Source of the DNA: Octopus vulgaris
Lineage: Eukaryota
Length of the DNA stretch: 64,000 nt
Assembly (NCBI GenBank): GCA_951406725.2
Contig: OX597836.1
Location: 2,728,001 to 2,792,000 of the forward strand
Direction of reading: 5' to 3'
Positions 37,085-46,299 of this stretch are shown here, piece by piece; the stretch's first letter is position 1, and each line of letters opens with the position of its first letter. Below the pieces are notes generated by a model that had not been told where the DNA came from, did not search any database, and saw only the letters and a program-made list of their open reading frames with translations. A program made the position numbers and the translations under genes.

Positions 37085-37457
37085 CAACAATTGAGGGTTA
37101 AAATTAATTAATCAATTTCACCAAGTGTTCAGTATGTAAAAGGACCATTTAAGGCGAATTCAAAATTTTACATTATATAATTAGGGCTTAGTAAAATAAA
37201 TTACTTTGCCACATACTGAACTTAGTAGAAATAGCAGCCAAAAAAAAATTTTCTTAGCATTTCTACTACTTAAAGAAAATTTCTCTCAGATAATGTTTAC
37301 TCCAGACAGCCCACGAAGGTTTGGAGGTAAACATTATCTGAGAGAAATTTTCTTTAAGTAGTAGAAATGCTAAGAAAATTTTTTTTTGGCTGCTATTTCT
37401 ACTAAGTTCAGTATGTGGCAAAGTAATTTATTTTACTAAGCCCTAATTATATAATGT
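37085..37457. mobile_element. Fold-back insert A in (TA)n: 85-bp unique tail plus 131-bp perfect inverted repeat
   Basis: Arms 37170-37300 and 37327-37457 identical by inspection, 26-nt spacer; (TA)n on both sides. Confidence 0.85.
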
Positions 37458-39325
37458 TATATATATATATATATATATATATATATATATATATATATAT
37501 ATACAAACACACACACACACCTTGAAAAATAGCTTAAACTTTCCATGCCGAAACCGTTGTACTACAGTGGACAAATTTTGATATCTTCGCATCTGAAGTA
37601 GCTGGAGATACGGTATTTTGACCAAAAGAATCGGCTATTGCAAACAAAAATAAATATTGAAACAAAGGTAATTGGCCAAATTTGGATATACGACAGTTTA
37701 ACATAATTGCAACGATACATACATATATATATATATATATATATATATATATATATATATAGAGAGAGAGAGAGAGAGAGAGAGAGAGAGAGAGAGAGAG
37801 AGAGAGAGACTTATATACATATATATACATACCTACATACACACACTGAGAGAGTTTTCTGAAATAGTATGAAAGGTGGTTCATAAGAAATAATGGTAAT
37901 AGTATTATACACAGTGAGACAGAGCGATGTGAGATTTAAGAAGCGAAGGGAAAAATTGGAAAGTAATGCGGAAGTGTTGTTTAGTAAAATGGAAAGTGTC
38001 ACGCGGAGTCGGTTATAGTGATGGTATTTGTAGTGGTGGTCGTGATGGTGGTGGTGTAGGTAGCGGTGGCGAATGAATGTGTAGGTGGCAGTAAATTGAA
38101 TGGGTGATGGCACTAATGTATCTATTATTCAATTAGATTTCCACAGAATCTGTTTCGTTAACACTCTCCTTCTCTGTAACATTTGTTGTTGATGACACGG
38201 TGTGTGAAGACATTTCGTGTGATTCAGAGTTTTCTCTGATTTGGAGTGCTTTTTTTTTTCGTGGTGGTCATTAATTTTATCTTCATTTTTCATCATTATA
38301 TTTGTTTGTTTGTTTTGATTAGCTTGCACATTTTTTTTATAGTTCTATTTTGTTTTTCTCTTTGCTTATTGGCCGCCATTATTTAAGTTGTGCTTCACCG
38401 TTGCACACGACTGCGACATTAATAAATAAAATGGACGTTATCGCGAGACAATTTGTTATTGGCATCACGCTGGATATATCAAAATCATAGTACAAGAGAA
38501 ATACAAAAAAAACCCCACAAATGAACACATCACACACACGTGCCTATATATACATATATATATGTGTGTGTGTATGTGTGTGAGTGGGTGGGTGTGGGTG
38601 TATGCATGGATATATACATAAATGTATGGAAACATATGTATATATATATATATATATGTATGTATACATATGTTTATATATATATATATGTGTGTGTGTG
38701 TGTGTATGTAGGGATATATATGCATACATAAGTATATATATATATATACACGAATATACATATATACTTGTATAGAGACACACACAAACACTCACACAAA
38801 CACATATATGTATGTATGTATCTATGTATGTATGTATCTATGTATGTATGTATATATCCTCGTCAGTCGTCTTTGTACTTAGTCATAAATCACACTCTGT
38901 GTTGCTTTTCTGTGTTTGCTGACGATTCTGAATTCTAGGCATAAAATTTATTTTTAAGGGTACCGCCAATATGGGAAGCCCTTAGGGTTATCATTAATCC
39001 TGCAAAACTGAATATTACCAATTGGTTGATATCTGTTGAAGAATTTGTAACCCTCTGTTTCTGTTGTTCACAGAATATAAATTACGTCGTTTCTTTATTT
39101 ACCATACAATTTTCCTGTGATATATATATATATATATATATATATATATATATATAACCTTAACTTTTTGAAAAACTCTTCCTCTATATATTATAGCTGC
39201 ATCAAGTCATTTCCTATAACTATCTATCTATCTATCGACCGATCTACACACACGCGCACACACACACACACACACACACACACACACACACACACACACA
39301 CACACACATATATATATATATATAT

Positions 39326-39522
39326 AGGGGGGAGTTCACGAAAAAAACAAAAGACGAAGACAGGTGGTGTACAAAACAAACTGATGTTTTAGTATAACGC
39401 TCAGGAATATAAAAAGTTTTTTACGTTTCGAGCCTACGCTCTTCTACTATTGATAGGGACACAGAAAAAAACAAGGAGAGAAAAAATGTGTGTAGTGGCT
39501 ACCGATCTATCATGGCGACTCC
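39326..39522 (-). mobile_element. PLE pLTR-like insert in (TA)n with degenerate hammerhead
   Basis: Minus strand GAAGAGC-GUAG-GCUC-GAAACGUA at 39422-39447; layout resembles 52641-52825. Confidence 0.6.
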
Positions 39523-39889
39523 TATATATATATATATATATATCAGTTACGAACTGATTTCTTCAGTCTGACACAAACTGTTAGGTGTGAATACTGAGTG
39601 CTCAAATTGATATGTCACTAATATTCCAGTTTGAACTGCAGTCGAAGTTGTGAATTTGCGACTACTTTTCCAAAGCGGCTAGAAATGGCTTCGCCTGGAA
39701 TCGATAGGTATAGGTTAAAGTAGGAAACTAAAGGTAAACAGATGGCAAACAGTTTGGCAAAACTTGACAAGATTGTTTAATTTATCTATGTAATAAAACG
39801 CTTGAGAACCAGTACTGATATGTTTACGATTGTGCAACTTAGTTGTTCGGCAAATAACATCACTACCATATGTACCACACTCAAGAAAT

Positions 39890-40290
39890 TATTTGTTTCT
39901 TTATTGCTCACAGGGGGTTAAACATAGCGAGGACCAACAAAGGGATTAAGTCGATTATATCGACCCCAGTGCGTAACTGGTACTTATTTAATCGACCCCG
40001 AAAGGATGAAAGGCAAAGTCGACCTCGGCGGAACATGAACTCAGAACGTAACGACAACTGAAATACCTATTTCTTTACTACCCACAAGGGGCTAAACACA
40101 AAGAGGACAAACAAGGACAGACAAAGGGATTAAGTCGATTATATCGACCCCAGTGCGTAACTGGTACTTATTTAATCGACCCCGAAAGCATGAAAAGCTA
40201 AGTCGACCTCGGCGGAATTTGAACTCAGAATGTAACGGCAGACGAAATACCGCTAAGCATTTCGGCCGGAGTGTTAACTTTTCTGGCAGC
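39890..40290 (-). mobile_element. SINE family A tandem dimer
   Basis: Two bodies joined at gaaatacctatttcttt (~40060-40076). Confidence 0.9.
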
Positions 40291-43305: not shown

Positions 43306-43765
43306 TATGTATATGTGTCTGTGTATGCGCGGGTATTTCCATCTACATCTAAATGCCAATCATTCTACTTTTTATATGTTTTCACATGTATGTGTACAAA
43401 CTTGTGCCTGCGTGCCCCTGTGTATTTGTGTGTATGATTGTGTTTGTGTGTGTGTGTGAAAATGCACAGAAAATTTTCGTTAGTTGTTACTTGTTATATA
43501 TTTGCTGACTAAACAATACAACAGGTAAGCTATTTGAAAAATATGGATTATCCACCGGACACATTAATGGCAATTTCAAATTCATTCCAGAATAATCGAG
43601 GGAAATATAGTTTCTGATTAACTATGAATCCACTGGACTTTCATCTGTAACCAGTTTGATAAGTGCCAACGCACGAAACACTTGGGCATTGAGTTACTCT
43701 GTTGTTTCTGCTCAATATTGATAATATATATATATATATATATATATATATATATATATACTATG

Positions 43766-43830
43766 CAGTATAACCTCGCAGTACGAGTGCCCCGTTGTAC
43801 GAGTAATTTGCTGTACGAGCCAAAATCCGC
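43766..43830 (+). mobile_element. pogo/Tigger-like transposon terminus
   Basis: CAGTATAACCTCG start with three subterminal GTACGAG repeats. Confidence 0.4.
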
Positions 43831-45790
43831 AGTATACACACTTACATACACACACATGCACACACATGTATATATACTGAAGGGAAACAAACCCATGGCA
43901 TAATGAGTATCTGAGGTCATTCTGAATATTTAGGTCATAAATGGCCCGGGATACTCGGCTTGCCTTGGGTCTGTTTTCCTGTTCTTTTAATATATACCTG
44001 CCAACACGGAAGTCTACTACGGATCCCTAGCTCCAGAGTCAGCTTTGAACTTGGTATCTAACGGTTGAACAATTATAGCACTTACGCAGCGTACCTATTG
44101 GTTTAGATCACCAGTGAACTAACCAACCCCATATTCTATATATATACATATATATATATATATATATACACACACACGCACACACACTGGCACACCTCTC
44201 TCCAGTTTCTTTCTCGTGTCATGGCATATACCATTTCGCTGCATTAACCATTCGTTCCCACATTTCGAAGTGTTGTAGAAGTTGTTCTTTTATTGGTTCC
44301 TTTATTTTATCGTTTTCTTCCATCTGAGTCACACCCCCGTCCCTGTCCTCTCTCTAATCACTCAGAAACAATCTATGTGTGTGACTTCCTTTTATTTGTT
44401 GGCGATTCGCGTCAAATCTCACCTCATTCCCTCTCTCTTCTCACTTTCTCTTTCGCACTCAAAGTCTTTATAATTCACATGAATGCATTCACCGTTTCTG
44501 TGCCCTACTTATTATTTCTCTTACTCTATTTTTCTGACCCATTATCTCATTCCCTTTTATATTGGCAAAGTTCTGCCTCACAGTCTGTCTGTCTGTTTTT
44601 TTGTATTCACACTGATATCCTCCATATTGTGTGAATGTGTGTCCGCGCGCGCATGCTATAGTGTATATCTGTGTATATGTATAGATAGATACATACATAC
44701 ACAGATAAACATATACAGAGATGGTAGGCTAGATCGACATCTATATATGTGTGTATCCATATATATATATATATATATATATATATATATATACGTATTA
44801 TATATGTGTGTGTGCTTGTGTGTCTGTACGAGAAATTTTCTCAATATTCTCCTCACACGTTACTCATAATAGAGTCTGCCTATATCGTTCTTATTCACTT
44901 AACCTACTAGACAACTCAACTCGTTTCGGTTGTATTCCTGAGAATACACATACACACATGCATACACACAAACACACTACATACAGTGACACACCTATAT
45001 AAGCGTGTATATATATATATATATATAGATATAGATATATATATTTGTAAGTACAGAATTATGCGTCCGTATATATATGTATACCTCTATTAACGCCACC
45101 TATCAATATTCCTTATTGCATTGGCCAAGCATTTCAACACTTCATCTTGATTGATTTTTTCCAGCACTCTGGCAAAAATTCAAGACAGTATTCACAAATC
45201 TACGAATGGACAACTCCACCGAGTCGTTCCTCTGTTTTTCACATGAACAATTAGATTATCGAGTCTTTCTTATTTCACTTTTCTAATAATTTTAGCATAT
45301 TTACTGCAGAGACCCCAATTTCAACGCCTTCGAAAAACTTGCTAATGTATTCACACCATATTCCTTAAATTCTTTGGCTTTCGGCCAAATTTAATGATAC
45401 ATATCATCAAAAATTTCTCCCCGAGAAAAACTAATAAACTAACACTTTAAACGTCGTTCACTTTTGACCATAATATGGTTAGTTAACCTTTGTCTTGATG
45501 TTGGTCGATGATAAAAGACGGCCGATAGATCAGATCACATAACCTGCAAGATCTGCAAGTGTGCTTGGCTTTGAAGACATCCGAAATAATTAATGAATTC
45601 ATCTATTCACAGGTGTTCTAGTAATATTTATTTTTCCATCAGATCTTCAACATCACACGACCATTTGAATATACATATTCAAATACGCATTCACAGACGC
45701 ATAAATGCATATATAGGAATATATATATAATTTTCTTCAGAACGAGGGAAAAGAGCAAGACTCTGAAGATTTTAGAATATTAATAAATAT

Positions 45791-45838
45791 GTCTTACAGC
45801 CGTTTCCAGGCTATTTATTATACCCCTTCATCGGAGAC
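45791..45838 (-). ncRNA. Minimal type I hammerhead ribozyme motif (PLE-associated type; U4C variant)
   Basis: GUCU-CCGAUGA-AGG..CCUG-GAAAC-GGCU-GUA^AGAC: stem I GUCU/AGAC, stem II, near-palindromic stem III, GUA triplet. Confidence 0.7.
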
Positions 45839-46299
45839 GGTTTGAGTAAATGATTAAGACATAGTTAATATAGATAAAATACGAAATAGTGTGTAAATGT
45901 ATGTATATATAAGAATATATACATACATTTATATATATGTATGTATATACATATATGTATATAATAAATGAATATATATATATATATATATATATATATA
46001 TATATATATATATATATATGTATATATATATTATATATATATATATATATATATATATATATATATATATATATATATATATATATATATATATATATAT
46101 ATATATATATATCATAAATATCTGAACGACGTATAAACAGTAGCTGGACGACAAAGTGGAGTATATTTCCCACTTAAATGTGCCTGAATACTAAGGGTGG
46201 CTGCTACTGTAGCTTGTAGCCCCAGGAGAACATCTTGTTCAGCTGGCTATTGACAGACTTTCTGTGCCCTATCAGTATTTGCAATATATCTATATATAT

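What the first reader, a model, noticed from the sequence alone, without database searches (positions are those of the whole stretch)
37085..46290. Shared 3' RNA-like module: UGGCUGYUAUUUCUA motif, enclosing stem, terminal hairpin, CCCU, then (TA)n
Seen: inserts A and B share only TAGAAATA(G/A)CAGCCAAA (37226-37242; 42985-43001). Read on the minus strand, the motif is followed by a stem whose sequence differs but whose pairing is kept (GTTCAGTATGT/ACATACTGAAC in A; CTAGTGGG/CCCACTAG in B). A terminal hairpin follows (GGTGGCAA/TTGCCACC in B; imperfect in A), ending in accct before (TA)n. The insert at 46111-46290(+) has TGGCTGCTACTGTAGC, TAGCC/GGCTA, ACAGA/TCTGT and gccct in the same order. The motif also occurs in an older repeat at 21640-21654. 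Inference: conserved structure with divergent sequence suggests an unannotated functional RNA element, such as an RT-recognition signal, a novel ribozyme or a scaffold.
Basis: partly seen in the sequence, partly recalled or inferred. Interest (0 to 1): 0.72.

Follow-up and report, generated by a model that had tools for sequence, protein, structure and literature searches.

The report
Shared start signal of ribozyme retroelements
Two of the inserts are the ends of small, protein-free jumping repeats that carry a predicted self-cutting RNA, and a 12-letter motif with the same predicted fold, at a near-constant distance from their insertion ends in three such families, is likely the signal that a Penelope-type copying enzyme reads to start copying them.

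Summary
A (37084-37457) and B (42842-43165) are two-armed, 5'-truncated insertions in (TA)n. They come from 562- and 490-nt tandem units that carry a predicted type I hammerhead: non-LTR retrozymes with a Penelope-type insertion footprint. The scan has reported such two-armed retrozymes before in this genome.

All three show TGGCTGYTATTT, an enclosing stem, and two hairpins each followed by CC(C/T)T or CCT and about 10-12 nt. These precede two fixed ends, mostly 55-72 and 155-167 nt from the motif. 43 of 45 two-armed insertions use one end on each arm.

The match at 46111-46290 is false: that family reads TGGATGCTAC and runs the other way. The 21640 hit is an old dispersed repeat whose best-conserved word is the motif.

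Of ten other element ends tested, only the two Naiad PLE ends carry a motif-like word, 47 nt before the end. No intact Naiad was found.

Verdict: likely an RT/RNP recognition and internal-start signal; Naiad is a candidate partner. Nothing was tested biochemically.

The parts
37084..37334 (-). Insert A, long arm: 5'-truncated piece of a 562-nt hammerhead unit; starts about 31 nt after the predicted cleavage site and ends at distal end S2 in (TA)n
37327..37457 (+). Insert A, short inverted arm ending at proximal end S1 in (TA)n; motif at 37387-37401
37226..37240 (-). Conserved motif TGGCTGCTATTTCTA (core 12 nt shared by A, B, E)
37127..37221 (-). A enclosing stem P1 (37211-37221 with 37127-37137); it holds hairpin H1 + CCCT (37183-37210) and end S1 at about 37170
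37094..37122 (-). A terminal hairpin H2 + CCCT, 10 nt before end S2 (tail S1 to S2 = 86 nt)
42842..43069 (-). Insert B, long arm: piece of a 490-nt hammerhead unit; starts about 8 nt after the predicted cleavage site and ends at S2 in (TA)n
43075..43165 (+). Insert B, short inverted arm ending at S1 in (TA)n; motif at 43109-43123; 5-nt filler at 43070-43074
42985..42999 (-). Conserved motif TGGCTGTTATTTCTA in B
42899..42987 (-). B enclosing stem P1 (42980-42987 with 42899-42906); it holds hairpin H1 + CCTT (42954-42978) and end S1 at about 42943
42855..42892 (-). B terminal hairpin H2 + CCCT, about 12 nt before S2 (tail about 100 nt)
46111..46285 (-). Insert C: a different hammerhead family whose sense strand is minus; fixed end at the left; the motif-like word is a private substitution. 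Not part of the module
21637..21823 (-). Old copy of a ~220-bp dispersed repeat (D) carrying the motif at 21640-21654

Best explanation
A and B are truncated, back-to-back copies of non-coding hammerhead-bearing tandem repeats inserted in (TA)n, and the shared motif with its predicted fold is likely the RNA signal that a Penelope-like RT-endonuclease binds to start reverse transcription at two internal sites. SHOWN: unit structure, hammerhead cores, (TA)n targeting, two fixed ends, one end per arm, the motif at a near-constant distance from the ends in three families, and kept pairing. INFERRED: (1) the unit is transcribed, cut by the hammerhead and probably circularised, or used as an uncut multimer; (2) the PLE protein, possibly a dimer, binds the motif and stem P1; (3) it nicks both strands of (TA)n; (4) each nick primes cDNA about 10-12 nt past a hairpin-CC(Y)T element, one at S1 and one at S2; (5) the two cDNAs are joined at their 5'-truncated ends. 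The donor enzyme is not identified; a Naiad-clade PLE is the best candidate (about 0.35). Identity as PLE-mobilised retrozyme ends is about 0.9; the confidence below is for the signal role.
For: Units and age: A copies 97-98% and B copies 98-100% identical among the best 40 scored, of 1,584 and 1,732 candidates. Tandem periods 562, 490, 478 nt. Hammerheads: type I cores with 5-9 bp stem I, 120-126 nt (A-clade) and 76 nt (B) upstream of the motif; E read by eye, 98 nt. Ends: followed by TA in 51/51 (A), 42/48 (B), 25/41 (E) terminated arms (overlapping loci not removed). 43 of 45 de-duplicated two-armed insertions are S1+S2. S2 lies mostly 160-167 nt from the motif in all three families although B does not align to A or E outside the motif. 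30 of 39 B arms and 20 of 41 E arms run through the cleavage site. Pairing: P1 has three different sequences in A, B, E. In 22 A-clade sequences 93.8% of cells pair; covariation score 0.172 against 0.132 (0/500 shuffles); slid controls 38-55%. Precedent: Poseidon_Ac starts RT at two internal sites that define the tail, needs the RNA just upstream, cuts AT-rich DNA on both strands and is predicted to be a dimer (PMC11167929). Partner: Naiad ends linked to RT remnants carry TGGCTGTT(A/T)TT then GTATRTGYGG 47 nt before the end. 2 of 2 Naiad ends match (0 and 1 of 200 shuffles) and 0 of 8 other ends do.
Against: No RT-encoding element with the full module was found. Young Neptune PLEs lack the motif and have 40-nt tails; Hydra ends lack it. 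Naiad copies are old (3' ends about 70-90% alike; longest open frame 292 aa among the Naiad-like hits of 150 scored of 3,100 candidates) and show one end only, whereas A and B are young. The Naiad test is post hoc: the resemblance was seen first and scored afterwards. The tail is 86-105 nt, not 30-40. Covariation is modest: 5 pairs change on both sides (38/500 shuffles reach this), the sequences are related and the A-clade was collected by the motif. About 45 of the first 100 17-mer hits are D-type repeats that are neither two-armed nor TA-targeted. Most loci were found with a long-arm query, so one S2 arm per insertion is built in.
Confidence: 0.6

Rival explanations
1. The motif is a host-factor site (a DNA promoter or transcription-factor element, or an RNA-binding-protein site) that several unrelated repeats exploit; the ends are set only by the hairpin-CC(Y)T elements.
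For: The 17-mer is the best-conserved window of the old D repeat: 0.88 against a median of 0.65. It stays ahead when copies are found with the 5' part only: 0.72 against 0.59 upstream and 0.53 downstream; motif better in 32 vs 9 and 36 vs 8 of 46 copies. D-like words also sit in long inverted repeats (L166, L494). The Penelope pLTR holds an internal promoter (PMC8557442, passages).
Against: The strand and distance to the element end are fixed in A, B, E and Naiad. D's own right end falls about 55-60 nt after the motif, behind CCCT, and matches B in register at 14 of 30 nt (p 0.0045, one of 13 comparisons). The D consensus was seeded on motif-bearing copies, which favours the motif.
Confidence: 0.22
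2. Shared ancestry only: A, B, E and D descend from one old element and the motif is a residual word with a generic structural role (RNA stability or circle folding), not an enzyme-recognition site.
For: A and E align weakly across the module (5 of 200 shuffles), and L509 bridges them.
Against: A 12-nt word stays near-invariant while paired stems beside it are wholly replaced; it is largely unpaired in the B and E folds.
Confidence: 0.1
3. The motif is the pyrimidine tract and acceptor of a short pLTR intron, as in Penelope.
For: B and E end the motif in TTTCTAG and TTTTCAG; GT-containing donor-like words lie upstream in B and in part of the A-clade.
Against: 9 of 22 A-clade sequences have no AG between the motif and the middle of P1.
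Confidence: 0.04
4. The module is a second, new self-cleaving ribozyme.
For: Invariant single-stranded residues at a multi-helix junction; no Rfam match.
Against: Each unit already has a hammerhead; the module tracks DNA insertion ends; no second conserved loop is shared by A, B and E.
Confidence: 0.04

Closest known systems
Metazoan non-LTR retrozymes (Cervera & de la Pena 2020, PMC7229834, passages read; Li, Clavereau & Pollet 2026, 10.64898/2026.07.22.740005, parts 1-3 of 5 read)
   Same: Non-coding tandem units with one type I hammerhead each, dispersed, proposed to be moved by PLEs.
   Different: Units are 478-562 nt (170-400 nt in the 2020 paper; 51-972 nt in the 2026 one). Hammerheads have long stem II and are missed by Rfam. 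The parts read describe no cis-signal shared between families and no two-armed S1/S2 geometry.
Poseidon_Ac internal initiation (Frangieh et al. 2024, PMC11167929, parts 1-2 of 4 read)
   Same: Hammerhead upstream; two internal RT start sites that define a tail; AT-rich target cut on both strands.
   Different: There the tail is 30-40 nt and the sites lie in an AC-rich stem-loop inside the ORF. Here the tail is 86-105 nt, each site follows its own hairpin-CC(Y)T, and a sequence motif is conserved across families.
Naiad PLEs, Naiad_Ovul and Naiad_Obim (Craig et al. 2021, PMC8557442; passages and supplement parts 24, 25, 52 of 59 read; file cut when stored)
   Same: (TA)n preference; 3' end with a motif-like word, then GTATRTGYGG, CC and a T-rich end; partial-tandem and inverted insertions are described for the clade.
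   Different: Autonomous; lack a canonical hammerhead; copies here are old, single-ended and have no P1 or second hairpin. The ends of Naiad_Esco, Naiad_Adux and Naiad-1_Skow showed no such word by eye.
Non-autonomous Chlamys elements such as MRC1 (PMC8557442, passage)
   Same: Non-autonomous PLE passengers in head-to-tail arrays that share their 3' ends with the autonomous family.
   Different: Here sharing is reduced to a 12-nt word plus architecture, and the partner is unproven.

Membership tests
Non-LTR retrozyme | Head-to-tail tandem units | tested here: met
   562, 490 and 478 nt periods; up to 9 motif copies in L167
Non-LTR retrozyme | Type I hammerhead in each unit | tested here: met
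   Own descriptor: B and 4 of 5 A-clade loci; E by eye, the descriptor missed it. Rfam finds none. The window copies are truncated before it.
Non-LTR retrozyme | No protein coding | tested here: met
   No ORF or RT match inside the units; neighbouring RT fragments are separate insertions
Non-LTR retrozyme | Self-cleavage in vitro | not testable with these tools
   needs a transcription assay
Non-LTR retrozyme | Accumulates as circular RNA | not testable with these tools
   only contigs were available; read-through arms fit a circle or a multimer
PLE-type insertion | Inverted 5'-truncated copy next to the main copy | tested here: met
PLE-type insertion | Two alternative ends separated by a tail | tested here: met
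   43 of 45 two-armed insertions are S1+S2
PLE-type insertion | Tail of 30-40 nt | tested here: not met
   86-105 nt here; 40 nt in two Neptune families of the same genome; about 70-75 nt in one Hydra family
Autonomous PLE | RT plus GIY-YIG ORF | tested here: not met
   none attached to the module in any locus examined
Naiad-dependent passenger | Shares 3'-end sequence with Naiad | tested here: inconclusive
   1-3 mismatches over about 19 nt, 47 nt before the end; 0 of 8 other ends match; post hoc; downstream global similarity p 0.01-0.57
Naiad-dependent passenger | Intact Naiad of the same age with the same two ends | tested here: not met
   only broken, single-ended Naiad copies; 150 of 3,100 candidates scored
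Known Rfam RNA | Covariance-model hit | tested here: not met
   (best 150 of 388 rows seen)

The most novel reading that the evidence does not exclude
TGGCTGYTATTT is the RNA-recognition element of Naiad-clade Penelope-like reverse transcriptases. It is borrowed by at least three hammerhead-circle families and by a very abundant old SINE-like repeat, and the retrozymes add a duplicated hairpin-CC(Y)T start signal that lets a dimeric RT prime both cut strands about 100 nt apart. This would name the enzyme that moves these animal retrozymes and define a portable RNA tag for PLE-mediated insertion into (TA)n.
Probability: 0.3. Interest if true: 0.75.

Novelty: new variant of a known kind. Interest (0 to 1): 0.52.

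Why it matters
How Penelope-like RTs choose their RNA and their internal start sites, and which enzyme moves animal retrozymes, are open questions (PMC11167929; 10.64898/2026.07.22.740005). Three divergent families give a natural mutagenesis. It points to a 12-nt word, one enclosing helix and two hairpin-CC(Y)T elements as the parts to mutate in an existing type of in vitro assay, and it predicts the start positions to within a few nucleotides. The element class itself is known, and the scan has noted the two-armed footprint repeatedly.

Tried and rejected
Rfam: no meaningful hit for the module, the hammerheads or D.

Autonomous partner: looked for among GIY-YIG hits, Neptune families (55, 58, 68), Hydra-type RT motifs (63, 66, 70, 71, 73; 39 stretches covering the 40 hits), Naiad RT hits (51, 58) and flanks of motif hits (31, 32, 69, 116). 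None carries the full module. RT fragments beside A arms (L005, L170, L216, L402) are separated by (TA)n and are separate insertions.

RNA evidence: no RNA holder listed on record. All runs laid were contigs, so no ends or strands could be read; no short-intron joint appeared. This is not counted as evidence either way.

5'-end mapping for A failed on a poly-T tract (28 of 37 arms returned zero) and was dropped. In B and E, 5' ends are only slightly enriched near the cleavage site (5/35 against 1.8 expected; 3/39 against 2.0).

Helitron 3' end (CTRR, recalled): rejected, because the elements continue past CTAG and A-clade copies mostly lack it. MEF2 site and Sm site (recalled consensus): poor fit, not tested. 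A transposase in L166: no Pfam hit. E-D downstream homology seen by eye: not significant (p 0.15).

Literature: the exact 15-mer is in no paper text and in none of the held supplements of PMC8557442 (file cut, line breaks can hide it) or PMC13282606 (the repeat library is not in the held file). Searches found no description of the module. bioRxiv supplements are closed; Repbase and Dfam could not be searched.
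Full report
Setting. The window lies in a 2.8-Gb, TA-microsatellite-rich genome. Its Naiad retroelement copies match the Octopus Naiad consensus ends of Craig et al., so it is octopus-like. The window holds no credible long ORF.

Observation. The 15-mer occurs five times exactly in the window: twice in A, twice in B, once at 21640. 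A and B are each an inverted pair of arms flanked by (TA)n. A has a long arm at 37084-37334(-) and a short arm at 37327-37457(+). B has a long arm at 42842-43069(-) and a short arm at 43075-43165(+). The short arms stop 86 nt (A) and about 100 nt (B) before the long arms do. Insert C fails. Of 30 family copies, 21 read TGGATGCTAC and only the window copy reads TGGCTGCTAC; 23 of 28 continue beyond the supposed terminus; the family's hammerhead is on the other strand, about 45 nt past the window copy.

What A and B are. Each has more than 1,500 first-look candidates, with best copies 97-100% identical. Elsewhere they form head-to-tail arrays of 562 and 490 nt. Each unit carries a type I hammerhead core with a long stem II, 120-126 nt (A-clade) or 76 nt (B) upstream of the motif; Rfam misses these. 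Both window copies are cut off before the ribozyme. Tandem non-coding hammerhead units are non-LTR retrozymes (PMC7229834, passages; 10.64898/2026.07.22.740005, parts 1-3). An inverted 5'-truncated copy, a tail at one end and a (TA)n bias are the PLE footprint (PMC8557442, passages). I reached this reading before consulting the scan's notes; those notes report the same two-armed footprint for 485-495-nt families in this genome.

How wide the module is. The 17-mer has 20,869 exact hits (control 1). By my flank classification, the first 100 listed are 32 A-clade, 23 B and 45 D-type. The A-clade pattern has 4,538 hits (control 0) and many subfamilies, with mean module identity 0.61 among 17 representatives, two of them short forms. 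A third family, E (478 nt, 1,581 candidates), turned up by chance beside a Neptune element. All three read: motif; 5' strand of P1; hairpin H1; CC(C/T)T; about 12 AT-rich nt; end S1; a T-run; 3' strand of P1; a short linker; hairpin H2; CCT; about 10-12 nt; end S2. P1 and H2 have different sequences in each family. B does not align to A or E outside the motif; A and E align weakly (5 of 200 shuffles), and L509 bridges them.

Ends. S1 falls mostly at 65-72 (A), 55-60 (B) and 54-65 (E) nt from the motif, and S2 at about 167, 160 and 163 nt on the reference units. 43 of 45 de-duplicated two-armed insertions pair an S1 arm with an S2 arm (A 13/14, B 19/20, E 11/11). Most were found with a long-arm query, so the informative part is that the partner arm is S1. 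30 of 39 B arms and 20 of 41 E arms extend upstream through the cleavage site, some by more than two units, which needs a circular or uncut multimeric template (the A figures were dropped).

Structure. On 22 A-clade sequences, RNAalifold recovers P1, H1 and a small inner hairpin, but not H2 or the upstream helix. My 36-pair model has 93.8% of cells paired and a covariation score of 0.172 against 0.132 (0/500); only 5 pairs change on both sides (38/500), and the sequences are related. P1 plus H2 together were matched by 0, 13 and 9 of 500 shuffles in A, B and E. The conserved fold is therefore supported mainly by its repetition in three families at the same offsets, and only moderately by base-pair covariation.

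Mechanism. In Poseidon_Ac the RT starts at two internal sites that define the tail, needs the RNA just upstream of them, cuts AT-rich DNA on both strands and is predicted to be a dimer (PMC11167929, parts 1-2). By analogy (inference), S1 and S2 are RT start sites, each placed by a hairpin-CC(Y)T element, and the invariant motif with P1 is the binding site.

Partner. Intact Neptune elements (781 and 753 aa; RT and GIY-YIG) lack the motif and have 40-nt tails. Hydra-type ends lack it too. Naiad ends (278 exact pattern hits), several linked to RT remnants, carry a motif-like word followed by GTATRTGYGG, 47 nt before their end in 21 of 30 loci. They match the two-block motif with 1 and 3 mismatches (0 and 1 of 200 shuffles); eight other ends need 7-8. 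Against this, the test is post hoc, Naiad copies are old and single-ended, and no intact copy appeared among 150 of 3,100 candidates scored. An earlier AI note reports a shared Naiad-retrozyme element in a mussel (e1-9340268). I saw it after finding the resemblance, did not test it, and do not count it as support.

The older repeat. The 21640 hit is a decayed copy of a roughly 220-bp dispersed repeat, D, that begins with (TGT)n and is not TA-anchored. The motif is its best-conserved word even in 46 copies found with the 5' part alone (0.72 against 0.59 and 0.53), though the consensus was seeded on motif-bearing copies. D ends about 55-60 nt after the motif, behind CCCT, and matches B in register at 14 of 30 nt (p 0.0045, one of 13 tests). 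That fits an ancient single-ended passenger, but it also fits a host-factor site, the main rival. D's direction of transcription is unknown.

Verdict. The class is known and the footprint was noted before in this scan. The cross-family motif and duplicated start signal were not found in print and make the RT-recognition question directly testable. New variant of a known kind; interest 0.52.

Noticed in passing
L035:2060 (the motif adenosine) and L035:1459-1501: In contigs of runs guessed to be RNA, the motif A reads G at 240/240 depth (X12, 10 contigs) and 26/80 (X4, 4 contigs), but at 0/11,167 (X1) and 0/327,687 (X16); X12 has a cluster of A>G changes. 89 of 89 genomic B copies have A (overlapping loci included). 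Possibly A-to-I editing of transcripts; there is no matched DNA and the run types are guesses.
   Followed up: partly
window 53210-53560: Another two-armed insertion in (TA)n without the motif; tail about 45 nt and a GCATTTT word near S1, like the Neptune ends of this genome. It suggests a separate Neptune-type passenger class.
   Followed up: partly
window 46111-46285: Family C is itself an abundant hammerhead repeat (1,670 candidates, best copies 89-92% alike to the window copy) with two ends about 45 nt apart.
   Followed up: partly
L166:1165-1374 and 3766-3979; L494: D-like motif inside ~200-bp inverted repeats 2.7 kb apart, with a short frame resembling an IS1595/Merlin transposase (recalled likeness; no Pfam hit). 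Probably a DNA transposon that captured a D fragment.
   Followed up: partly
L022, L029, L431, L450 and many places on G000:C29: A 107-bp satellite derived from the motif-bearing end of D.
   Followed up: no
L154:1268-2704 and L301:4425-5564: Young Neptune PLEs carry a separate upstream ORF (380-479 aa) ahead of the RT-endonuclease ORF, with no convincing Pfam match for the L154 one.
   Followed up: no
window 14432-14969: Decayed PLE-type RT fragments on the + strand.
   Followed up: no
family E, upstream of the motif (e.g. L352:1500-1570): The 5' strand of P1 has a second perfect 8-nt partner upstream of the motif, a possible alternative fold or switch.
   Followed up: no
L256:4477: A second motif-like word about 310 nt upstream of the Naiad end; the published Naiad_Ovul consensus has another near its 5' end.
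   Followed up: no
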